From a virus: a DNA stretch of 64,000 bases. Numbering within the stretch: position 1 is the stretch's first letter; each line of letters opens with the position of its first letter. The stretch covers positions 1 to 64,000 of IMG/VR virus record IMGVR_UViG_3300037797_000117, one strand, 5' to 3'. The translations under genes and the position numbers were made by a program. Under the pieces are notes generated by a model, which saw nothing but the letters and a program-made list of their open reading frames with translations, was not told the origin of the DNA and did no database searches. Shown one piece after another: positions 40 to 12,512 of this stretch.

Positions 40-3000
40 CTACGCGTCGCCTAGAGCGTCCACGGTCGCCGCGTCACGCTTGCCGGCCGGAACCATGTTC
101 CGCATAGCCGCCCGCACCGTCGCCAGCGCGGCCGCCCGGTCACCTCGGACCGTCACGATCATGTCCCGCTTGGCGGTGCCCTTTTCCACGCTGGCACCCT
201 TCACACCCGCGCCTTTCAGCGCGGCACGCACGGCGTTACGGGCGTCCCCGTACGACATGCCAGTCAGAGCATAGGCAGGGAGCGTAAAGGTGTCACTGGA
301 CCGCGTAGCGGCCGTCTCAGGCGCCGCAACGGGCGCGGCGGGCACGGGTGCGGGGGTCGCCTGGTCGCCGGTCAGCAGCGCGTACGCGGCCGCGAACGTG
401 GCCGCCATCTCCGCACGCTGCGCGTCGGTCAACGCCGCTACGTCGGCCGGCATGACGGGAACGGCCACGGTTACCGGCGCGGGCGCGGGCGCGGGCACCT
501 GGTCGACGACGGGTGCGGGCGTGTCGACCGTCGGCACCTGGTCGACGACGGGCGCGGTGTCGACGACGGGCGCGGCCACCTGGTCACCGGCCAGCCACGC
601 CGCAAGCCGGTCCCGGCCGGAGGCGCTGTAGCCGCCCGTGAATTCGGCGTGCGACGTCTCGAAAATGAACCCCTTCGCACCCTTGTTCCAAACCCCGCCG
701 AACGTGGACACCTGGTCACGGATGGCCACGTACTCATCACGCGACAGACGCCCCTTAGGCAGGGTCAGAACATCCGCCGGGAACCGCTTGCCTTTCACGG
801 TCACGGTGTCAATCGACCAGGACCCCGCCGACAGGACCTCACGTACCCGCGCCGCGATATCGGCGGGCGCGTCGGTAGCAACGGGAGCGGCCGCCGTGAC
901 GGCCGGCTCATCCTCGGCAGCAACGGGCGCGGGCGCGTTGGCCGATTCGTGCGACGCGATCATCGCGCGCACCTGGTCGAACGTGAACCGTCCGGCGACC
1001 AGGTACCCGGCGGGCGCCGCATCCTCGGCACCGGCCAGCGAAACGCGGGCGGCCGCGTAGTCACCGGCCGACATGAGTGTCCGGGCGTCCTCGGCCAGCC
1101 GTTCAACGGCATCGATCGGGGCGGGCGCCTCAACGGTGGCGGGCGCGGTAGCGGCGGGCGCGGGCATGGCAGTCTCCTTGCTCGGTTCGTCCGACACGGC
1201 GGGCGCCGCAACGGGGGCGGGTACGGGTAGGTAGATGACGCGTCCGGTGGACAGTTTGGCGCGTACGCTGCCAGCCATCCGACCCCGCGTGATCGGTTCG
1301 ATCCGGGTGATCCGGGCGGTGAGGGTGAGCCGTTCCCCGTTGCCGTTGCGACCCTCGATCGCGGCAGCGTCACCGGACGCCATAGCTGTACGGGCATCCT
1401 CGCCGTTGCGCACGGTCACGGCGGGCGTGTCCGTCTCGCCGGTAGCGGGGTGATCGTGGGTGCACATGTCCGGCGCGCAGTATGCGGCCGCGCTGTCCGG
1501 CGCGGGGTTGTCGGCGGGCGCGGCGGGCGCGGCAACGGGGGTCTTGACGGGTGCCGTGTCGTCAAGCCGAACGGGCATGAGCACGTGCTGTGTGGTGAGT
1601 CCGTCCTGTGTGATCAGAACGGGCATGCGTGGCGTGTTGACGCCGATCCGAACATCACCCGTGAAAGTCCGCAGGCCGGCGGTCAGATAGGCGTGGTTGA
1701 ACCCGATTCGGGTGTCGGCGGGCACGTCATGCGCGCACGGCACGTGACTGGCGGCGCGGTCGCCGTCGCTGATCGCGACAACGTTGACCCCGGACGGGTC
1801 GAATTCCAGCCGCACCGGCGTGGACCGTTCCAACGCCGGGGATACGCGCTTGACGGTGTCGGCAAGGGCGGCCGCGTCCACGGTCACCGTGTACGGCCGG
1901 TCACCTCCGATAAGGGCGTCGAGTTTGGGGAACGTACCGTCAAGGGTGCGCGTGGCCAGCGTCACCCCGCCTACGGTGACCGACACACGCGGACCGTCGA
2001 CGCCACGCGTGTCGTCCGCCCCGATATGAACGTCACCGGCCAGCTTGCCGGCCAGCTTCGCGGCGTACACCAGGAACGGCGCGGGAACGAGCGCGTCCAC
2101 AGTGCCGGAGGTGCCGGTAGCGGCCACCTGGTCACGGGCAAGCCGGTACCGGTCGGTGGTTTCCATGCGCAGCATGCCGGGGTTGTCGGCGGACACCGTG
2201 ACGTGAACCCCGGTGAGAACGGGCAGGGTGGCATCCTTGCCTGCCGCAACGGCGGCGCGGGCAACCGTGGCCGCGAACATGCCGGCTGGCAGGGTGGCAA
2301 CGGTCGGCGGGGTTGCTGGCAGTGTCGGGTAGTCGTCCGGGGTCGGATACGTTGCCAGGTCTGCACCCATGTCGCCGTATGCGATTCGCAGCGTTCCCCC
2401 GGCGCACGACAACGAGACGGTGTCCGGGGTGGCAACGGCACCCTTGCGGGGCTTAGCGGGCGCCGGGAACTGCCGCACCATGTCACGCATGGCAGCCGCC
2501 CTCACCAACACAACGGCGTTGCCGGATGCGCTACCGGGCACCTCGAATCGGGCGGACGCCTCATAGTCGAACGCTTCCAGCGTGACCCCGGACCCCCCGG
2601 TCGTGATCTTGACGTGTGCCAGCAACGGGAGGTTGCTACGGGTACCGATCACCCAATGCGCGGTGTCAAGCGCACGGACGAGCGCGGCACGGTCCACAAC
2701 GGCGGCCAGCGGTGACGCGTCGGCGGGGGTCGATTCGGTGGTCTGGTCGGCGGTGGCGGTGGGCGTGGTCATGGTGTGATCTCCGTTCGGTTCGGTGGTC
2801 TGGTCGGCGGATAGTTCGATGTGTGACGGGCACCCGTTGCGGTGGCCTAGAGCGCCCGCAAGGGCAACGTTGGCGGCCGGGCAACCGCAGTCCAGAACGT
2901 CACCCGGCAGCCGGCCGGCGAGGGTGACCCCGAAAACGGTGTGCCGCTCATCCACGATCACGTTGGTAACCGTGCCGTAGGTGTCGGGCCCGTTGTCGAC

Positions 3001-4092
3001 GAAAAGGGTGATCTTGAGGCGGTGCGGGCCGTTGACGCGTACCTCGGTAACCTCGCCCGTGTCGGACTCGATCACGGGTGTGTAGTCGATGCGCGCGGCA
3101 TAGTCGCCCGTGGATTCGTCGGTCGTGATGTGCTGATCGGTCCGGACAACCCGGGTGATCGTGACCAGGTGTCCACGAAGGTCTGAGAAACCCTCGCCAG
3201 CGGCCACGGTCGACCAGCGGCACATGCGTCCGTCGGTGGTCATCGGCGGGTCATCGGCGTCCGTGTCGGCCGACACGTCGGCAACGGGCGCGGCCGGCAA
3301 CGGGATCTCAGTGCACCTGGCAACGTTGTAGGCGACCAGGTTGACCAGAGACGCACCGTACGACATGCCGCCGCCTACGGTGCCGCACGCGACCGACCCG
3401 TCGATGATCAGCGCGTAGTGCGTCCGGACGGGGGTCAGCGGTCCACGCGACTCATAGGCGACCAGGCACACCGCGTGCCCGTTGACGTCGAACGTGGACA
3501 CCTGCACCTCACGGATGCGGGCAGGGGCCCGGTCCCACCCGTTATCGCCGTCCCCGGTCATCTCAGCGGACAGTCCACGCGCCCGAAACGCGTCCCGTAG
3601 CTGCCGGGTAAATCCGTCCGACCCGCACTCACGCGGGTCCGGCGCGTCGGACGGGACACGCAACTGCAGCGCAGCAACGTCTACGGGCGGAATCCCGTTG
3701 CACTTGACCAGGTCACAGCCCATTTCGCCGGTGACGTGCGCGCACCTGGTGTCGGAGGTGCGGGTGTCGTCTTCCACCCGTGCGGCGTGGATTTCCGCGC
3801 TCGTTGCAGGTGCCGGAGTGATCACGGCCAGGTGATCGAGGGTGGGAACGGTCACGGAACGGTCCACGGGCGTGCCGTTGCGCATCCGGTCGGCCCCGTC
3901 TTTGTTGACCACGATTCCACCCACGATCGGCCGGTCAAGCAGGTTGGTGCGCTTGCCTGCCCACGTGATGATCTCGGTCACGCGCATCCGGAAAGCCCCC
4001 TTGTATTCGGGGACTGATCCGGCCGGAACGTCGACCAGGTCACCGACGCGGACGGCGGGACGGGTGGCGGTGGAAGCGGCGGTGGTGATCAT
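40..4092 (-). CDS. dnaN: Large multi-domain protein containing a full DNA polymerase III beta-clamp (DnaN-like) domain at ~1564-2700
   Basis: Motifs FDYEASAR, AAGKDATLPVLTGV, TTDRYRLA, TRTLDGTFP, IGFNHAYL and HVLMPVRL match actinobacterial DnaN in order. ATG 4092 has a GGAG RBS. Confidence 0.85.
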   Translation of the reverse strand: MITTAASTATRPAVRVGDLVDVPAGSVPEYKGAFRMRVTEIITWAGKRTNLLDRPIVGGIVVNKDGADRMRNGTPVDRSVTVPTLDHLAVITPAPATSAEIHAARVEDDTRTSDTRCAHVTGEMGCDLVKCNGIPPVDVAALQLRVPSDAPDPRECGSDGFTRQLRDAFRARGLSAEMTGDGDNGWDRAPARIREVQVSTFDVNGHAVCLVAYESRGPLTPVRTHYALIIDGSVACGTVGGGMSYGASLVNLVAYNVARCTEIPLPAAPVADVSADTDADDPPMTTDGRMCRWSTVAAGEGFSDLRGHLVTITRVVRTDQHITTDESTGDYAARIDYTPVIESDTGEVTEVRVNGPHRLKITLFVDNGPDTYGTVTNVIVDERHTVFGVTLAGRLPGDVLDCGCPAANVALAGALGHRNGCPSHIELSADQTTEPNGDHTMTTPTATADQTTESTPADASPLAAVVDRAALVRALDTAHWVIGTRSNLPLLAHVKITTGGSGVTLEAFDYEASARFEVPGSASGNAVVLVRAAAMRDMVRQFPAPAKPRKGAVATPDTVSLSCAGGTLRIAYGDMGADLATYPTPDDYPTLPATPPTVATLPAGMFAATVARAAVAAGKDATLPVLTGVHVTVSADNPGMLRMETTDRYRLARDQVAATGTSGTVDALVPAPFLVYAAKLAGKLAGDVHIGADDTRGVDGPRVSVTVGGVTLATRTLDGTFPKLDALIGGDRPYTVTVDAAALADTVKRVSPALERSTPVRLEFDPSGVNVVAISDGDRAASHVPCAHDVPADTRIGFNHAYLTAGLRTFTGDVRIGVNTPRMPVLITQDGLTTQHVLMPVRLDDTAPVKTPVAAPAAPADNPAPDSAAAYCAPDMCTHDHPATGETDTPAVTVRNGEDARTAMASGDAAAIEGRNGNGERLTLTARITRIEPITRGRMAGSVRAKLSTGRVIYLPVPAPVAAPAVSDEPSKETAMPAPAATAPATVEAPAPIDAVERLAEDARTLMSAGDYAAARVSLAGAEDAAPAGYLVAGRFTFDQVRAMIASHESANAPAPVAAEDEPAVTAAAPVATDAPADIAARVREVLSAGSWSIDTVTVKGKRFPADVLTLPKGRLSRDEYVAIRDQVSTFGGVWNKGAKGFIFETSHAEFTGGYSASGRDRLAAWLAGDQVAAPVVDTAPVVDQVPTVDTPAPVVDQVPAPAPAPVTVAVPVMPADVAALTDAQRAEMAATFAAAYALLTGDQATPAPVPAAPVAAPETAATRSSDTFTLPAYALTGMSYGDARNAVRAALKGAGVKGASVEKGTAKRDMIVTVRGDRAAALATVRAAMRNMVPAGKRDAATVDALGDA

Positions 4093-4415
4093 GGCAGGCT
4101 CCGATCGGGTAGGCGGTGCACACGTGCAAGGGGGGGGCGGGCAGTTACTCGCTGACATCGCAGCGTTCGGCGATGGTGACGAATCGGCGTGTCACCTGGT
4201 TACGGTCGTCGATGGCGCGTACCCGTTCGGCGCGGTTGTCGGCGAGGGTGAGGGCGTCCCGCGCGCCGTCGGACAGCGCGCCCAGGACGGCGGCGTAGGC
4301 GTCCGGGTGCAGGCGACGCAACTTACGCAACATGATCAGCACGGCTTCGTCGGTGGCCTCGGCATCGGTGTACGGGGTGGCGGTCATGGCGGGCTCCGAT
4401 CGGGTGGGCCGTGCA
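4090..4415 (-). repeat. ~31-bp direct repeat spanning the RBS and ATG of two adjacent genes (4090-4120 and 4385-4415)
   Basis: catggcaggctccgatcgggtaggcggtgca vs catggcgggctccgatcgggtgggccgtgca. Confidence 0.85.
4145..4387 (-). CDS. Hypothetical protein
   Basis: 80-aa ORF with GGAG RBS 6 nt upstream, in operon context. Confidence 0.7.
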   Translation of the reverse strand: MTATPYTDAEATDEAVLIMLRKLRRLHPDAYAAVLGALSDGARDALTLADNRAERVRAIDDRNQVTRRFVTIAERCDVSE

Positions 4416-7026: not shown

Positions 7027-7365
7027 ATGGCCAGCTACACCGTTCCGATCGGTCACATCGGGGCCCACAACAAGACCCTCGTCGCGGCGACCGTTGATAC
7101 TGTGACGTTCGCGCTCGGGTCGACCGACACCCCCGGGTGGGCTGCGGTGCCGAAGGCGGTCGAGGTGTTGTCCGACGGGTCGGCCCCGATCTACGTGACG
7201 GTGGACGGTTCAGCTCCGACCGATGGTGGGACGCACTGCTACCAGGTACCCGCGTACGCCGGCGCCACCGTGATCGACGTGCGGGACGCCAACCCGAACG
7301 ATGCGGTCGTGGTCAAGCTGATCTCGACCGGAACCCCCGTCTATTCGGTTTCCCGGGCCGGCTGA
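7027..7365 (+). CDS. Small beta-rich putative virion protein, paralog of 23001-23285
   Basis: Shares TLV..TV.T.TF, YV..DG.AP, VPA.AGAT.I and VVK.IS.GTPV with 23001-23285. Confidence 0.7.
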   Translation: MASYTVPIGHIGAHNKTLVAATVDTVTFALGSTDTPGWAAVPKAVEVLSDGSAPIYVTVDGSAPTDGGTHCYQVPAYAGATVIDVRDANPNDAVVVKLISTGTPVYSVSRAG

Positions 7366-7376
7366 CGGGAGGTCTC

Positions 7377-8612
7377 GTGACTGTAGAAAGGCGCTTCTTC
7401 CTCGGTGGAGAAGGCGGCGATGCCGCGCTGAACGTCAAACGGTTCGGCGCTACAGGCGACGGCGTCGCCGACGACACCGCAGCCATCCAGGCCGCCATCG
7501 CTGCAAACCCGGACGACCGCGGCGTGGTCTACCTGCCTGCCGGCACCTACGGGATTTCGGGGCCGTTGACCATCCAGTCCGGCGTCACCCTCATCGGCGA
7601 CGGCGACGAAACCACGACGATCGTGCAGGCCGCCACATCCGGCGCAACCATCACCGGTACCGACATTATCCGGCTCAATATCCGCGACCTGAGCCTTGTC
7701 GGCCCCAACTCCGGCACCGGCGTCGGACTGGCGCTGGATCTCGACGCCCAGCCGGCCACTGCCTACATCAACCTGTCCCGGGTGACGGTCCGCGACTTCG
7801 GCTCCCACGGCGTCGACGTCGAAAACCCGATCGTGTCCACGTTCAACCGGGTCGCGGCCCAAGGCAACGGCGGCGACGGCATCTACCTCCACGGCCAGGT
7901 CGCCGGGGCGGCGGGCACCTCGGTCGTCATGAACGCCTGCTACGGCAACGGCAACACCGGCGTCGGCATCCACCTGTACAACATGGTGTACTCGTCGCTG
8001 GTCGGCTGCGCCGCAGACGGCAACAGCGTCGGCCACCACATCGAAGGCTGCCACGCGGTGACGCTGGTCGGCTGCGGCGCCGAAAGCAACCCGACCGGGC
8101 TGCGGATCAGCGGCGGCTACGGTGTCGGCGTCGACGGCCTGTTCGTCTACGACAACGGCGGCACCGCCGTGCACGTCACCGGCAACGCGCAGCGGGTCAC
8201 CGTGGCGCGGGCGGTCGAGATGGACCCCGACGGTGCGGCGACGGCGTTCATCGACGTCGACGCGGGCTGCCGGGTGGCGTTGACTGCCTGTTCCGGGGTG
8301 ACGGCGAATAGCCTGGCTGACGGAACGGTGTTGGTGCTCGACGACGGGGCCGGCAACATTTCAGCCGGAACCAGCCTCACCCTCGGCGGCGACGGCGTGT
8401 TGGAACGGCCCTCGGCGTTCACGCTGCGGGCGCAGAACAACCTGCATGTGGGATCGACGTTGCAGCATCTTGGTACCCATATCGGTTTCTACAGTGGCGG
8501 CCCGGCGACGAAGCCGAACGTGACCGGATCCCGCGGCGGCAACGCTGCGCTCGCATCGCTGCTGACCGGGCTGGCCGCCATGGGGTTGATCTCCGACTCG
8601 TCGTCTGCATGA
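7377..8612 (+). CDS. Right-handed beta-helix / pectate lyase-3-like spike or depolymerase
   Basis: NVKRFGATGDGVADDTAAIQAAI...VYLPAGTY and repeated GNG..GI rungs. GGAGG RBS before GTG 7377. Confidence 0.85.
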   Translation: MTVERRFFLGGEGGDAALNVKRFGATGDGVADDTAAIQAAIAANPDDRGVVYLPAGTYGISGPLTIQSGVTLIGDGDETTTIVQAATSGATITGTDIIRLNIRDLSLVGPNSGTGVGLALDLDAQPATAYINLSRVTVRDFGSHGVDVENPIVSTFNRVAAQGNGGDGIYLHGQVAGAAGTSVVMNACYGNGNTGVGIHLYNMVYSSLVGCAADGNSVGHHIEGCHAVTLVGCGAESNPTGLRISGGYGVGVDGLFVYDNGGTAVHVTGNAQRVTVARAVEMDPDGAATAFIDVDAGCRVALTACSGVTANSLADGTVLVLDDGAGNISAGTSLTLGGDGVLERPSAFTLRAQNNLHVGSTLQHLGTHIGFYSGGPATKPNVTGSRGGNAALASLLTGLAAMGLISDSSSA

Positions 8613-8786: not shown

Positions 8787-10304
8787 GTGGCTGTGGTCCA
8801 ACGCAGGTTCTTCACCAGCGGCTCCGGTTCGGGTGGACCCCCGGGCCGCCGTGTCGAACTGTCCCCGGAAGACTTCGGTGCCAAATGTGACGGCCGCGCG
8901 GTCGACGCGGTCAGCATCGCCGAGTCGTCGGCGAACCTGACAGCGACCGGTGCCGCGTTCACCGCCGCAGACGTGGGTAAGACGATCGCGGTGTACGGCG
9001 CCGGGTTGCAGGCCCACGGCTTCGCGCACGTCACCACGATCGCGTCCGTCCAGTCAGCGACCGCGGTCACGCTCACCGCGCCGGCGGCCGGGACGGTGGC
9101 GGCGTCACGGGCGGTGTACGGCACCGACGATTCGGTGGCCATCGAGGCGGCCATCGCTGAGATCGTCACCCGTGGCATCACGGACCGGTCCTACGCCGGC
9201 CGGCTGTGGTGCAGCAACGGCATCTACATGCTGACCCGGGCGCCGCAGCTCGGCGGGGCGTACAACTCCCATGCGCAGGTCCGCATCCCGACGATCGCGG
9301 ACACGGCGCAGAAGTTCGACCTTGGCATTGTGGCCGGCTCGGCGGGTGGCACCTTCGGCCACTGGAACCAGACGGTTCCGCAGAAGGCCGGCGCGGTGTT
9401 CTACAGCACGTCGGTTGGTGTGGCGTCGGACGGCACCTACGGCCCTCCGTGCATGGTGGCCGGGCCGACCCCGACCGCGGCGACGTGGTCCAACATGCTG
9501 CTCACCGTGGACGGGCTCCAGTTCGTGGCGCAACGCAACCCGGGTCTGACCGCGTTGCACGCCGGCCGGATCGGGCAACTTCACATCAAGTCCCTCGGCG
9601 TGGTCGCCGACATGACACCAGCCGAGATGAACGTTGCAGCGTTGACAAACGATCTCGGCCTCGGCGTCCGGGTACCCGCAGTGGGAAACAACCACTACGT
9701 CATGATCGACCGGCTCGCGGTCGAAGGCTTCTACTACGGGATGACGATCACGGACCATCTGACCGCGGGGACGCTGGTCATGGTCTACTGCAACACCGCG
9801 ATCTTCGTTTCGTCCGGTGGGGCAGCCGAACACGGGGTCACCATCGCCAACCTCGGTGTCGAGGCCAGTTCGACCGTGATTGAAGGCTCGTTCAGCAGCG
9901 ACGCCCGGTTCCCGATTTTCGTCGGGCAGTGCAACATCGAAACGTCCGAAGGGACGACGTTCAAGGACACCAACTCCGGGTTCGTCGGCACCATCAACTT
10001 CAGCGACAACACGCGGGCAGCGCCGACCACGACCGGCTGCAACAACGTGAAGATCGTGGACCTGGTCCGGCCGCCCGGCGCGGTCGCAGCGCCCGACACC
10101 CCCGCGGTCCCTGCCACCACGGTGGCGTTGAAGAACCCGTTCTTCCGGGACGCGTTCGTCCACGTCGCCGGCGGCACCGTCACCGCGATCGCCGTCGACG
10201 GGCGCACGACGGGTGTCACCTCCGGCATGGTCGCCGTCCCCAACGCCAAGACGATCGCGATTACGCACAGCTCGGCACCGACGTGGGTGTGGACCCTGCT
10301 TTAG
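8787..10304 (+). CDS. Second beta-helix-type spike or depolymerase-like protein
   Basis: PEDFGAKCDG...GTDDSVAIEAAI with a beta-rich body. Start is 8787 or 8793. Confidence 0.7.
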   Translation: MAVVQRRFFTSGSGSGGPPGRRVELSPEDFGAKCDGRAVDAVSIAESSANLTATGAAFTAADVGKTIAVYGAGLQAHGFAHVTTIASVQSATAVTLTAPAAGTVAASRAVYGTDDSVAIEAAIAEIVTRGITDRSYAGRLWCSNGIYMLTRAPQLGGAYNSHAQVRIPTIADTAQKFDLGIVAGSAGGTFGHWNQTVPQKAGAVFYSTSVGVASDGTYGPPCMVAGPTPTAATWSNMLLTVDGLQFVAQRNPGLTALHAGRIGQLHIKSLGVVADMTPAEMNVAALTNDLGLGVRVPAVGNNHYVMIDRLAVEGFYYGMTITDHLTAGTLVMVYCNTAIFVSSGGAAEHGVTIANLGVEASSTVIEGSFSSDARFPIFVGQCNIETSEGTTFKDTNSGFVGTINFSDNTRAAPTTTGCNNVKIVDLVRPPGAVAAPDTPAVPATTVALKNPFFRDAFVHVAGGTVTAIAVDGRTTGVTSGMVAVPNAKTIAITHSSAPTWVWTLL

Positions 10305-11348: not shown

Positions 11349-12512
11349 CTACTCCGTGTCGGGGCCGCTGAGGACGGCGAACACCTTCCGGGCGGCGCGG
11401 ACCAGGTCCCGGTGCGCGCGGAGCTCGCCGGCCTCGCGGTCGTGGGTATCGCTGACCCGGGCCAGCTTTTCTGCCAGCTTTTTCAGCACGGCGACGACCG
11501 CGTCGATGTCCTTGGCGTCGCGGATGCCGGGGATTCCGCCGCCGTAGGGCATCCGGCCGAGAACCTCGGCCAGCCGTGTCCGGTCGTTGTCGGTGAGCTG
11601 GGTGACGGGTGGGGGCTGCCAGCGGAGGCTGTCCAGGTACTGCCTGGTGTCGGTCCGCTTCCACCGTTCGGCGTAGTCGTCGCTGCCGGCGAACGCCGAA
11701 CGCTCGTCCAGCTCGGTGTCCTTCCGGTACCCGGCGACGGCGGCGACGGCGTCGCCGATCTGGCCTCGCGTGACCCGGTAGGTCAGTATCCACCGGGCCG
11801 GTCCCTGTCCGACGCGGAGGAAAAACTCGCCCGGTCTGGTCAACTCGCTGAGGTCGGCGTTCCTGTCGCCGAGGAGAAGCGCTGCCTCGGCCGCGTTGGG
11901 CATCTTTCCGCAGAACATCGCGGATGCAGCCCGGTCCCTGCCGGGTCCGAGCTGGTCGACGGTGCCGCTGGAGTAGGCGGAGAACACCGTGATGCCGGCG
12001 ACCGGGCCGACCCGGCGGAGTTGATGAAGGCGCCGGTTGAGCTTCGGGTGAAGGTCGAGTCCTTTCTCTACGACGATGACGATCTGCGGCATGCTCGGCG
12101 AAACCGGAAACGGGTAGCCGACAGCGGCGATACCGCTGAAGCGGTGCGCGCGGTCGGCTGCCACCCGCTCCGCGGCCTTGAGCATCGCGGTGGCGCCGAC
12201 GACGGTGGTCGTAGTCCAGTCGATGACCGGGATGTCCTGCTCGGGGGCCAGGAACGGCGCAGACAGGCCACCGCCGTTGAGGTCGATATGCCACACGATG
12301 ACGTCGGGCATGCGGATCAGGCCGGCCGTGAGGGTTTGCAGCAGTGTGGTACCGCCGGCATTGCTCTGGCAGACGATGTAGCCGCCGCTGCGGACGTCGA
12401 TTGTTGCCACGGTGGCGTCGGCGTACTGGCCGACGGGGACTCTGCTCTTGATCGACAGGGGTGAGTGGTCGGTCGGGTAGCTGGCCGGTCGGTATGGCCC
12501 GGCTTCGGTCAT
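11349..12512 (-). CDS. FtsK/SpoIIIE (TraB-like) P-loop-fold protein with degenerate Walker A and B
   Basis: YIVCQSNAGGTTLL (Walker A position), VIVWHIDLNGGG, IDW, PQIVIVVEK (Walker B position), RRVGPVAGI. GAGG RBS. Confidence 0.65.
   Translation of the reverse strand: MTEAGPYRPASYPTDHSPLSIKSRVPVGQYADATVATIDVRSGGYIVCQSNAGGTTLLQTLTAGLIRMPDVIVWHIDLNGGGLSAPFLAPEQDIPVIDWTTTTVVGATAMLKAAERVAADRAHRFSGIAAVGYPFPVSPSMPQIVIVVEKGLDLHPKLNRRLHQLRRVGPVAGITVFSAYSSGTVDQLGPGRDRAASAMFCGKMPNAAEAALLLGDRNADLSELTRPGEFFLRVGQGPARWILTYRVTRGQIGDAVAAVAGYRKDTELDERSAFAGSDDYAERWKRTDTRQYLDSLRWQPPPVTQLTDNDRTRLAEVLGRMPYGGGIPGIRDAKDIDAVVAVLKKLAEKLARVSDTHDREAGELRAHRDLVRAARKVFAVLSGPDTE

What the first reader, a model, noticed from the sequence alone, without database searches (positions are those of the whole stretch)
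40..4092. Complete DnaN sliding clamp embedded in a ~1350-aa multi-domain phage protein
Seen: a full three-domain beta-clamp sequence (~1564-2700) sits between a ~440-aa N-terminal region of small, partly Cys/His modules and a ~500-aa C-terminal region. That region has Pro/Ala linkers, a helical module, PVVDQVP repeats and an LSRDEY...GGVWNKGAKGFIF module, which resembles the N-terminal module of some phage/plasmid methylases and polyvalent proteins. Established: DnaN is normally a stand-alone ~370-aa dimeric ring. No DNA polymerase is visible in the window. Inference: the protein could be a clamp-tethered carrier that loads accessory domains on DNA, a dominant-negative partner of host DnaN, or a decoy for clamp-binding toxins or antibiotics (griselimycin/mycoplanecin class).
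Basis: partly seen in the sequence, partly recalled or inferred. Interest (0 to 1): 0.82.

Follow-up and report, generated by a model that had tools for sequence, protein, structure and literature searches.

The report
Phage sliding clamp fused to docking modules
A 166-kb high-GC phage encodes a complete DNA sliding clamp inside a 1350-residue protein with about nine small add-on domains, and the DNA-modifying enzymes encoded just downstream all end in a shared short peptide, so this protein is probably a docking platform that carries them along phage DNA.

Summary
Window 40-4092 (minus strand) is one 1350-aa gene. Codon periodicity is uniform along it, and GGAG lies 7 nt before the ATG. A complete actinobacterial-type DnaN (residues 486-866 of the 1372-aa frame) sits between long flexible linkers. 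It is not a read-through: 14 of 20 relatives, each under 50% identical, carry the same fusion, with the C-terminal modules in shuffled order.

The complete phage genome has no family A, B or C DNA polymerase and no clamp loader.

Seven of the twelve genes downstream end in a P/A linker plus [FY]VSxW. These include a DNA methyltransferase, a YgjP/SprT-like peptidase, a PAPS-reductase-like protein and a DUF6011 protein. DpdA ends in the canonical clamp-binding motif QLDLF.

Such tags occur in all 10 fused-clamp loci with more than 1 kb downstream, and in none of 83 stand-alone dnaN loci. Orthologues swap the tag for a canonical motif, and two loci switch every tag to DPWGAVL.

Best reading (about 0.45): an expanded tool-belt clamp that gathers phage DNA-modification enzymes. 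Binding is inferred only; the single complex prediction gave no verdict. The scan noted a similar clamp-tag idea in another phage.

The parts
40..4092 (-). Whole CDS of the clamp fusion protein (1350 aa; stop codon at 42-40)
   Evidence: The database copy P0003 has the same 1350-aa call.
4099..4102 (-). Ribosome-binding site GGAG, 7 nt before the ATG at 4092
   Evidence: Read directly from the sequence.
3784..4071 (-). N1: small beta-barrel of SH3/Tudor/KOW type (frame residues 30-125)
   Evidence: AF2 pLDDT is 83-94. VIA-align gives Z 5-7 to Spt5 KOW, PsaE, Tudor and ribosomal barrels, which is a generic fold. It is conserved in 9 homologues.
3625..3783 (-). N2: Cys/His knuckle C-x-H-x5-G-C-x4-C-x-G-V-P-P-V, a putative zinc site
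   Evidence: C126, C131, G133 and P135 are nearly invariant across 12 homologues. Confidence in the model is low.
3259..3624 (-). N3: alpha/beta module
   Evidence: AF2 pLDDT is 70-85. Only generic structural matches were found, Z about 7. It is conserved in homologues.
2764..3258 (-). N4: beta-rich region of low model confidence, with a second Cys/His cluster (CGCP...GH..GCPSH) and the T/P/A/D-rich linker to the clamp
   Evidence: pLDDT is below 50.
1561..2703 (-). Complete three-domain DnaN sliding clamp (frame residues 486-866). It ends in LMPVRL, as stand-alone clamps do.
   Evidence: Pocket segments are conserved.
1207..1416 (-). C1: helix plus small beta-barrel (NGNGE...TGRVIYLPV)
   Evidence: AF2 pLDDT is 87-97. 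It is present in P0006, P0007 and P0004.
922..1134 (-). C2: three-helix, TPR-like module (AGDYAAAR...GYLVAGRFT). It is present in every fused homologue examined.
   Evidence: AF2 pLDDT is 95-97. VIA-align gives Z 7-8.3 to peptide-binding TPR units such as STUB1, Sgt2 and Cpr7. That is within the noise range for helical folds.
577..873 (-). C3: alpha+beta module W-S...LSRDEY...GGVWNKGAKGFIF
   Evidence: AF2 pLDDT is 92-97. It aligns across 16 homologues. Methyltransferase clusters matched weakly in the Atlas shape search.
367..576 (-). PVVDQVP-type Pro/Val/Ala repeat linker, followed by one long helix
   Evidence: An 18-nt unit is repeated at 541-575.
43..309 (-). C5: ferredoxin-like beta-alpha-beta-beta-alpha module at the C-terminus, present in nearly all homologues
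   Evidence: AF2 pLDDT is 92-96. VIA-align gives Z about 7 to PheRS FDX-type and ribosomal domains, which is generic.

Best explanation
The gene encodes a phage-specific 'expanded tool-belt' sliding clamp. The central DnaN core is expected to form the usual ring. Because the phage has no clamp loader or DNA polymerase of its own, the host clamp loader would have to load it on phage DNA. Long flexible T/P/A linkers hang about nine small, non-enzymatic adaptor domains from each protomer. The genes immediately downstream encode DNA-acting enzymes: DpdA deazaguanine transglycosylase, a PAPS-reductase-like protein, a DNA methyltransferase of the kind found in giant polyvalent proteins, a YgjP/SprT-like metallopeptidase, a DUF3072/DUF6011 protein and several unknowns. 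Each of these ends in a P/A linker plus a docking peptide. The peptide is the W-tag [FY]VSxW(G/A), a canonical clamp-binding motif (QLDLF, QLPLF, QLSLPV), or both in tandem. I infer that these peptides dock the enzymes on the fusion protein. The canonical motif would bind the clamp's hydrophobic pocket. The W-tag would bind either the same pocket, as a variant comparable to ImuB's QLPLWG, or one of the fused adaptor modules; C2 and C5 are the only ones universal to the family. The outcome would be that DNA modification and protection travel with the clamp on newly replicated phage DNA. Functionally, this would be a non-covalent counterpart of a polyvalent protein. Shown here: the fusion, its conservation, the tags and their association with the fusion. 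Inferred: ring formation, loading, and every binding step.
For: (1) The fusion is real and conserved. An exhaustive search with the C-terminal 506 aa found 20 cluster representatives. Of these, 14 carry DnaN Pfam domains and are 1114-1639 aa long. P0004 matches the N-terminus, the clamp and the C-terminal modules separately, at 32-41% identity.
(2) In this genome, 7 of 171 ORFs end in [FYPL][VL]SxW within 6 residues of the stop. All seven lie in the 14-kb block directly downstream of the clamp gene. The same relaxed pattern occurs only 3 times in the other roughly 40,000 residues. DpdA in the same block ends EQLDLFAA* and the PAPS-reductase-like protein ends GQLPLFVSTWGAS*.
(3) Tagged neighbours occur in all 10 fused-clamp loci that have more than 1 kb downstream: G000, L002, L008, L009, L010, L011, L020, L021, L052 and L057. 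No tag was found at 7 IMG/VR loci with stand-alone phage clamps, nor in 1583 ORFs of 76 stand-alone dnaN loci.
(4) Orthologues exchange the motifs. DpdA ends in QLDLF here, PFVSSWA* in L002 and QEALPLF in L008. Tandem forms also occur: PFVSGWSQLDLFA*, PYVSAWAQLSLPV* and QLTLPLDGADPWAAVLG*.
(5) The switch is concerted. In L020 and L057 the enzymes carry DPW[GA][AD]VL instead, including the YgjP-like and PAPS-reductase orthologues. This suggests one shared, evolving receptor.
(6) The clamp pocket segments are conserved (TDRYRLA, DDTLPxLTG, FNxAYL, LMPVR).
(7) QLPLWG is an experimentally validated mycobacterial clamp-binding motif (PMC10421592).
(8) The linkers at both clamp junctions are disordered in the models.
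(9) The synteny is conserved: the fusion gene lies near the head of the arm that diverges from the terminase/portal arm.
Against: No binding has been shown. All fused-clamp phages may be one lineage, so the association between tag and fusion could reflect shared ancestry rather than function. The W-tag lacks the Q1 and L4 of the canonical motif. The clamp pocket shows no fusion-specific change that would explain a new specificity. The tags could instead address the host clamp or some other host or phage partner, such as capsid packaging. None of the adaptor modules has a demonstrated peptide-binding fold; the TPR-like and SH3-like matches are at noise level. TIGR00663 scores just under its equivalog cut-off.
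Confidence: 0.45

Rival explanations
1. It is mainly a replication processivity factor. The phage clamp captures host Pol III (DnaE1) for phage DNA synthesis. The flanking modules serve DNA or origin binding, or replisome assembly with the phage's SSB and helicase. The downstream tags address something else.
For: The complete genome has no family A, B or C polymerase and no clamp loader, but it does encode an SSB. The pocket is canonical. Phage clamps are annotated as processivity factors (phrog_947). The N1 barrel and the Cys/His knuckles are folds often used for nucleic-acid binding.
Against: This does not explain why the roughly 900 extra residues are conserved only where neighbours carry tags. 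It also does not explain why DNA-modification enzymes rather than replication proteins carry clamp-binding motifs. The gene sits in the DNA-modification operon, far from the SSB and helicase region at about 80-90 kb.
Confidence: 0.2
2. It is a host-takeover factor. The fusion forms mixed or competing rings with host DnaN, or soaks up host clamp partners. This would shut down host replication and repair or divert them to the phage. It corresponds to the first reader's dominant-negative and decoy ideas.
For: The clamp is closest to actinobacterial DnaN and has the same pocket segments, so host partners could bind it. Bulky appendages could block normal use.
Against: There is no direct evidence. 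Appendages are joined by long flexible linkers, which would not obviously block the ring faces. The conserved set of tagged phage enzymes points to recruitment rather than inhibition. No toxin or antibiotic context was seen.
Confidence: 0.1
3. It is a polyprotein. The fusion is cleaved at its P/A linkers, for example by the YgjP/SprT-like metallopeptidase conserved in the operon, and releases a free clamp and free small proteins.
For: A YgjP-like peptidase is conserved downstream in G000, L002, L008 and L020. Modules are separated by long linkers and change order between homologues. One relative (P0021) has C2 and C5 without a clamp, and one (P0008) may be split. Iyer et al. 2017 propose processing of polyvalent proteins by their own peptidases (PMC5512222; I recall this from the paper and did not re-read the passage).
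Against: No cleavage motif was identified. 14 independent cluster representatives keep the single reading frame. The peptidase itself carries a docking tag, like the other enzymes.
Confidence: 0.1
4. It is an artefact: a chance open frame in high-GC DNA, or an assembly or read-through error that joins separate genes.
For: At 69% GC, long spurious ORFs are common. The opposite strand carries a 421-aa junk ORF.
Against: Codon periodicity is uniform along the whole frame. Every module is conserved at the protein level in independent assemblies from JGI, Logan and NCBI. AF2 gives confident folds for five flanking modules.
Confidence: 0.02

Closest known systems
Bacterial beta sliding clamp DnaN as a 'tool-belt' hub with clamp-binding motifs (QL[SD]LF; mycobacterial ImuB QLPLWG)
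   Same: It has the three-domain clamp core with conserved pocket segments. Partner proteins carry short C-terminal hydrophobic motifs after flexible linkers, some of them canonical, such as QLDLF and QLPLF. The ImuB motif ends in WG, as the W-tag does.
   Different: DnaN is a stand-alone protein of about 370-400 aa with two pockets per ring. Here about 460 N-terminal and 500 C-terminal residues of adaptor domains are fused to it. Most partners carry a non-canonical [FY]VSxW or DPWGAVL tag. The partners are DNA-modification enzymes, not polymerases or repair proteins.
Stand-alone phage-encoded DnaN clamps (phrog_947; for example Arthrobacter phages and Rhizobium phage RR1-A)
   Same: It is a phage-borne DnaN homologue. 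Identity is 26-36% by tblastn and 27-36% to IMG/VR stand-alone clamps.
   Different: Those clamps are 361-392 aa with no extensions, and their neighbourhoods lack the tags. No cultured phage in the collection searched has this fusion.
Polyvalent proteins of phages and conjugative elements (Iyer, Burroughs, Anand, de Souza, Aravind 2017, PMC5512222)
   Same: It is a large multi-domain protein of a mobile element with shuffled domain order. Its neighbours include a methyltransferase that matches profiles built from giant polyvalent proteins (phrog_15406, phrog_11358, phrog_10691) and a zincin-type peptidase.
   Different: No enzymatic or LPD domain was detected in the fusion itself. The paper does not mention a sliding clamp or DnaN. 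Here the enzymes are separate proteins that share a tag, rather than being fused.
Eukaryotic PCNA with PIP-box clients such as DNMT1 and SPRTN (from my own knowledge, not tested here)
   Same: The concept is the same: a DNA methyltransferase and a SprT-family protease are tethered to the sliding clamp by a short peptide, so they act on newly replicated DNA.
   Different: The clamp family and motif are unrelated, and PCNA carries no fused adaptor domains. This is an analogy only.
T4 gp45 clamp with C-terminal tail motifs of gp43, gp33 and gp55 (from my own knowledge)
   Same: A phage clamp is used as a mobile platform for non-replicative clients through C-terminal peptides.
   Different: gp45 is a stand-alone trimer with its own loader, gp44/62. 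Its clients are transcription factors, not DNA-modification enzymes.

Membership tests
DnaN / beta sliding clamp (Pfam PF00712, PF02767, PF02768; TIGR00663) | Three tandem clamp domains in the canonical order | tested here: met
   All three Pfam domains score above their gathering scores at residues 487-566, 623-745 and 757-864. phrog_947 covers 5-366 of 368 profile positions.
DnaN / beta sliding clamp (Pfam PF00712, PF02767, PF02768; TIGR00663) | Score above the NCBIfam equivalog cut-off (137.65 bits) | tested here: not met
   The score is 131.3 bits on the protein and 135.6 bits in the genome search. It is just under the cut-off, so this is a diverged paralogue and not the housekeeping equivalog.
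DnaN / beta sliding clamp (Pfam PF00712, PF02767, PF02768; TIGR00663) | Conserved segments that line the partner-binding hydrophobic pocket, and the C-terminal MPxRL | tested here: met
   DATLPVLTG, TTDRYRLA, FPKLDAL, FNHAYL and LMPVRL align with the actinobacterial and stand-alone phage clamp segments.
DnaN / beta sliding clamp (Pfam PF00712, PF02767, PF02768; TIGR00663) | Head-to-tail dimeric ring that is loaded on DNA | not tested
   No homodimer model was run.
Polyvalent proteins (Iyer et al. 2017) | Multi-domain protein of a phage or conjugative element with variable domain order | tested here: met
   About ten modules are present. The order of C2 and C3 is permuted among homologues. The phage context is shown.
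Polyvalent proteins (Iyer et al. 2017) | Contains the signature enzymatic or anti-restriction domains or LPD domains of the class | tested here: inconclusive
   Only DnaN domains were found by Pfam in 20 family members. Distant LPD-type domains could be missed. The paper does not list a clamp.
Clamp-binding motif (CBM) clients | Canonical Q-L-x-L-[FLP] peptide in a flexible terminal region | tested here: met
   DpdA ends in QLDLFAA* and the PAPS-reductase-like protein in QLPLF.... QLSLPV*, QLTLPV, QLDLFA* and QLTLPL occur in related loci.
Clamp-binding motif (CBM) clients | The W-tag [FY]VSxW fits the CBM consensus | tested here: not met
   It lacks Q at position 1 and a hydrophobic residue at position 4. 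Only the hydrophobic position 2, Ser at position 3 and the aromatic at position 5 line up. This lowers the claim that the tag is a canonical CBM. It does not lower the claim that it docks on the fusion protein.
Clamp-binding motif (CBM) clients | Physical binding of the peptide to the clamp | not testable with these tools
   This needs ITC, pull-down or co-crystallisation; see Tried and rejected.

The most novel reading that the evidence does not exclude
A phage has turned the sliding clamp into a dedicated assembly platform. Fused adaptor modules, possibly the universal C2 or C5, act as extra docking sites that read a private C-terminal address ([FY]VSxW, or DPWGAVL in a sister lineage), distinct from the canonical clamp-binding motif. 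More than two clients at once, namely the whole DNA-hypermodification and protection toolkit, could then ride one ring on phage DNA independently of host clamp traffic. This would be a non-covalent polyvalent protein built on a clamp.
Probability: 0.3. Interest if true: 0.85.

Novelty: new variant of a known kind. Interest (0 to 1): 0.72.

Why it matters
Sliding clamps are textbook stand-alone rings with two partner pockets. How many clients share them is a long-standing question. A conserved clamp with about 900 residues of fused adaptor domains, always next to a set of peptide-tagged DNA-modification enzymes, suggests how a virus can couple DNA hypermodification and methylation to replication, as PCNA does for DNMT1 in eukaryotes. 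That includes deazaguanine modification by DpdA. It also suggests how the capacity of the tool-belt can be enlarged. It supplies testable peptide-receptor pairs: two tag classes and a small number of candidate receptor modules. It also names a family of roughly 15 uncultured actinophage proteins that current databases annotate only as DnaN. I found no description of this fusion or of the tag in the papers searched.

Tried and rejected
(1) Complex prediction on the clamp core (14-row alignment) with the last 45 residues of the DUF6011 protein gave 'no answer' (score 0.02 against a mark of 0.32). This is neither support nor evidence against binding.

(2) Word-based homologue searches for shorter proteins, using the N-terminal (23-485) and C-terminal (867-1372) regions, found nothing. 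The exhaustive search was needed.

(3) megablast of the gene against cultured phages found no match. tblastn of the C3 module against cultured phages and plasmids found no match.

(4) Foldseek of the C-terminal model found nothing at E <= 0.001 in the PDB or BFVD. VIA-align matches had Z of 8.3 or less, within the stated noise range. The language-model Atlas look-up of C3 scored 0.81 or less, a lead only.

(5) The search for related loci failed on the broad alignments A4, A3 and A7 because no stretch was conserved enough. C3 alone found nothing in IMG/VR. Genome contigs was therefore not scanned, and no host or prophage was identified.

(6) A DNA pattern for PFVSGWG in IMG/VR gave 27 hits, all chance matches: wrong frame and not at a C-terminus.

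(7) I looked for a fusion-specific change in the clamp pocket that might explain the W-tag. None was found.

(8) I compared C2 and C5 between loci of tag class 1 and class 2. Class 2 shares (K/R)(R/H)P where class 1 has RFT in C2. With only 2 against 8 sequences and one class-1 exception, this decides nothing.

(9) One mistyped family search was returned as an error.

(10) The idea of a decoy against griselimycin-type antibiotics has no supporting context. I rejected it as unsupported, but it is not disproved.

Full report
**1. The observation**

The window is 69% G+C, so long open frames need checking. The minus-strand frame 40..4158 is open for 1372 codons.

In 50-codon windows, G+C at codon position 3 is 0.70-0.94. 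It stays above position 2 in the same frame along the whole length. The overlapping plus-strand ORF 1450..2715 translates to Arg/Gly-rich nonsense.

The real start is almost certainly the ATG at 4092:
- GGAG lies 7 nt upstream of it.
- The preceding gene stops at 4145.
- The database copy is called from this Met, giving 1350 aa (P0003).
- All homologues begin at the equivalent position, M...PRxGDV.

Residues 487-866 of the frame carry all three DnaN Pfam domains above their gathering scores. They match phrog_947 'DNA polymerase processivity factor' over its whole length at 3.7e-61. They also match TIGR00663 at 131-136 bits, just under the 137.65 cut-off, at window 1564-2700.

The nearest solved structures are mycobacterial DnaN, such as 5ah2 and 8dj6, at E about 1e-38.

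**2. Where it sits**

The window is the first 64 kb of a 166,387-bp IMG/VR virus record rated complete. Its ends overlap by only 28 bp, so it is a circular assembly.

The window carries terminase, portal, protease, major head and tail-spike genes. The fusion gene is the third gene of a leftward arm that diverges from this structural arm near 4.9-5.4 kb. That arm continues across the record's origin to about 148 kb.

The whole genome gave no match to Pfam DNA_pol_A, DNA_pol_B or DNA_pol3_alpha, and none to dnaX. An SSB is present.

Downstream of the fusion gene lie:
- a DUF3072/DUF6011 protein
- an 806-aa DNA methyltransferase that matches profiles built from giant polyvalent proteins
- a YgjP/SprT-like metallopeptidase
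- a PAPS-reductase-like protein
- DpdA
- a C5 cytosine methylase

**3. The fusion is conserved**

A length-matched word search found one relative, P0004 (1389 aa), from an independent Logan assembly. It aligns with the query in four separate blocks:

| Block | Identity |
|---|---|
| N-terminus | 32% |
| Clamp | 37% |
| LSRDEY module (C3) | 41% |
| Helical module (C2) | 36% |

C3 and C2 are in the opposite order in P0004.

An exhaustive HMMER search with the C-terminal 506 residues found 20 cluster representatives. Module mapping and Pfam scans show 14 of them are 1114-1639 aa and contain DnaN. IMG/VR and JGI metagenomes gave three more fused loci: L011, L052 and L057.

Module content varies, but the clamp, C2 and C5 are in all the fused proteins examined. 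One relative (P0021) has C2 and C5 without a clamp. One (P0008) may be split or frameshifted. Read-through or misassembly is excluded.

No cultured phage in the collection has the fusion. The nearest cultured clamps are stand-alone, in Arthrobacter and Rhizobium phages, at 26-36% identity.

**4. The flanking modules**

AlphaFold2 on family alignments gave confident small domains joined by disordered linkers.

| Module | Predicted fold | Basis |
|---|---|---|
| N1 | SH3/Tudor/KOW-like barrel | Z 5-7, generic |
| N2 | Nearly invariant C-x-H...G-C-x4-C-x-G-V-P-P-V knuckle | |
| N3 | alpha/beta | |
| N4 | Poorly modelled; ends in a second Cys/His cluster | |
| C1 | Helix plus barrel | |
| C2 | Three-helix unit; best matches are peptide-binding TPR units | Z 7-8.3, within noise for helical folds |
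| C3 | alpha+beta | |
| C5 | Ferredoxin-like | |

Pfam and PHROGs recognise none of these modules.

For C3, the Atlas shape search lists three methyltransferase clusters over that region at TM 0.20-0.36, and a 141-aa viral protein at TM 0.51. Sequence searches do not support it.

**5. The lead that changes the reading**

I checked it and connected it to this gene.

- Because the genome is circular, those ORFs are the genes immediately downstream of the clamp fusion.
- Seven of the twelve genes between 165.6 and 151.6 kb end in a P/A linker plus [FYPL][VL]SxW within 6 residues of the stop.
- The relaxed pattern occurs only three times elsewhere in about 40,000 residues.
- In the same block, DpdA ends EQLDLFAA*, a canonical clamp-binding motif.
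- The PAPS-reductase-like protein ends GQLPLFVSTWGAS*, which has both motifs overlapping.

**6. The tag travels with the fusion**

Every fused-clamp locus with more than 1 kb of downstream sequence has tagged neighbours.

| Locus | Tagged C-termini |
|---|---|
| L002 | PYVSAWAQLSLPV*, PYVSAWAHSGGSR*, PFVSSWA* (on DpdA), PFVSSWIDAA... |
| L008 | PFVSRWSQLTLPVEVS*, PFVSGWSS...; DpdA ends QEALPLFTMPG* |
| L009 | PFVSGWAAI* |
| L010 | Three tags |
| L011 | Two tags |
| L021 | AFVSDWALLTL*, PFVSGWSQLDLFA*, AFVSGWAALDLGASL* |
| L052 | AFLSGWATL*, PFVSGWRDVEQLSLI* |
| L020 | DPWGAVL* on four proteins; QLTLPLDGADPWAAVLG* on the PAPS-reductase |
| L057 | DPWADVLADPWADVLDTA* |

L020 and L057 carry a second tag class.

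Controls were clean. Seven IMG/VR loci with stand-alone 361-392-aa phage clamps had no tag within 10 kb on either side. The 76 stand-alone dnaN loci from metagenomes (798 kb, 1583 ORFs) had none.

**7. What this implies**

Three patterns argue that the tags and canonical motifs serve one purpose and share a receptor:
- Orthologous enzymes exchange a canonical motif for a W-tag. DpdA is the example.
- The two kinds of motif occur in tandem in either order.
- All enzymes of a phage switch tag class together.

A validated mycobacterial clamp-binding motif, ImuB QLPLWG, also ends in WG (PMC10421592).

The clamp pocket segments are conserved. They do not differ between fused and stand-alone clamps. 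So canonical motifs can plausibly bind the pocket. The lack of any fusion-specific pocket change, the tandem arrangement and the concerted class switch lean towards an extra receptor among the fused modules, though only weakly. C2 and C5 are the universal candidates.

I could not settle this point.

**8. Mechanism, with what is shown and what is inferred**

Shown:
- a conserved clamp fusion
- flexible junctions at both ends of the clamp
- a canonical pocket
- no phage polymerase or clamp loader
- a downstream operon of DNA-acting enzymes with shared C-terminal peptides, including bona fide clamp-binding consensus sequences
- strict co-occurrence of tags with the fused form in the data at hand

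Inferred:
- The host loader puts the ring on phage DNA.
- The enzymes dock by their tails.
- DNA modification and protection are thereby coupled to replication.
- The adaptor domains enlarge the number of clients beyond two per ring.

I put about 0.45 on this reading. The rivals:

| Rival | Confidence |
|---|---|
| Mainly a processivity factor for hijacked host Pol III | 0.2 |
| Host-clamp antagonist or decoy | 0.1 |
| Polyprotein cut by the operon's YgjP-like peptidase | 0.1 |
| Artefact | 0.02 |

A caveat applies to all of this: the fused-clamp phages may be one lineage, so co-occurrence is not independent evidence many times over.

**9. Comparison with what is known**

It is a diverged member of the DnaN family by domain content, but not the housekeeping equivalog.

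It works like the clamp 'tool-belt'. By analogy it resembles PCNA with PIP-box clients such as DNMT1 and SPRTN, and T4 gp45 with tail-motif clients. These analogies come from my own knowledge.

It resembles polyvalent proteins in size, modularity and neighbourhood. However, it contains no recognised polyvalent-protein domain, and that paper does not mention clamps.

Literature searches for the tag, for phage clamp fusions and for a link between the clamp and DpdA found nothing relevant.

The scan itself has an earlier, unpublished AI note of clamp-type tags on DNA-modifying enzymes in an unrelated marine phage (e1-5365103). I did not test it. It shows the tag idea is not unique to this genome, while the fused clamp is.

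**10. Verdict**

It is a new variant of a known kind, with interest 0.72.

Noticed in passing
G000:151570-165565 (minus strand; outside the window, reached across the circular junction; locus L003): Seven proteins end in a P/A linker plus [FYPL][VL]SxW(G). DpdA ends in QLDLFAA* and the PAPS-reductase-like protein in QLPLFVSTWGAS*. This block lies directly downstream of the clamp fusion gene.
   Followed up: yes
L020:5715-12660 and L057:3894-5570: A second tag class, DPW[GA][AD]VL, replaces [FY]VSxW on the enzymes next to two divergent fused clamps. L057 carries it twice in tandem.
   Followed up: partly
Whole genome G000 (166,387 bp): No family A, B or C DNA polymerase and no dnaX-type clamp loader were detected in a phage rated complete. 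An SSB ending in DFNDEPPF is present at about 85.7-86.4 kb, and a DnaB-like ORF at about 82.8-84.2 kb was judged only from its C-terminal sequence.
   Followed up: partly
G000 ends (1-28 and 166360-166387): The 'direct terminal repeat' is only 28 bp. It looks like an assembly overlap of a circular or circularly permuted genome, not a biological DTR.
   Followed up: partly
L130:386-2524 (protein P0021, 712 aa): This protein has the C2 and C5 modules and a GLGW-type module but no clamp. There is no clamp gene in the 385 nt upstream, so the adaptor modules also exist outside clamp fusions.
   Followed up: partly
window 7137-8612 and 8787-10304 (+): Two tail-spike or pectin-lyase-like proteins are encoded next to the divergent promoter region, ahead of the terminase. 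This is an unusual position for tail-spike genes.
   Followed up: no
window 11349-12512 (-): An FtsK/SpoIIIE-like ORF is inverted within the structural arm (phrog_31069, 8e-24).
   Followed up: no
L011:15502-16773: One tagged downstream protein (423 aa, ends PFVSAWSTFAGAR*) has a weak C3-like stretch at residues 322-390 (E 8e-5 against the C3 profile).
   Followed up: no
G000:143384-144202 (-): A 272-aa ORF outside the tagged block ends in TQLGLLPPPRHSR*. This may be another clamp-binding-like motif.
   Followed up: no
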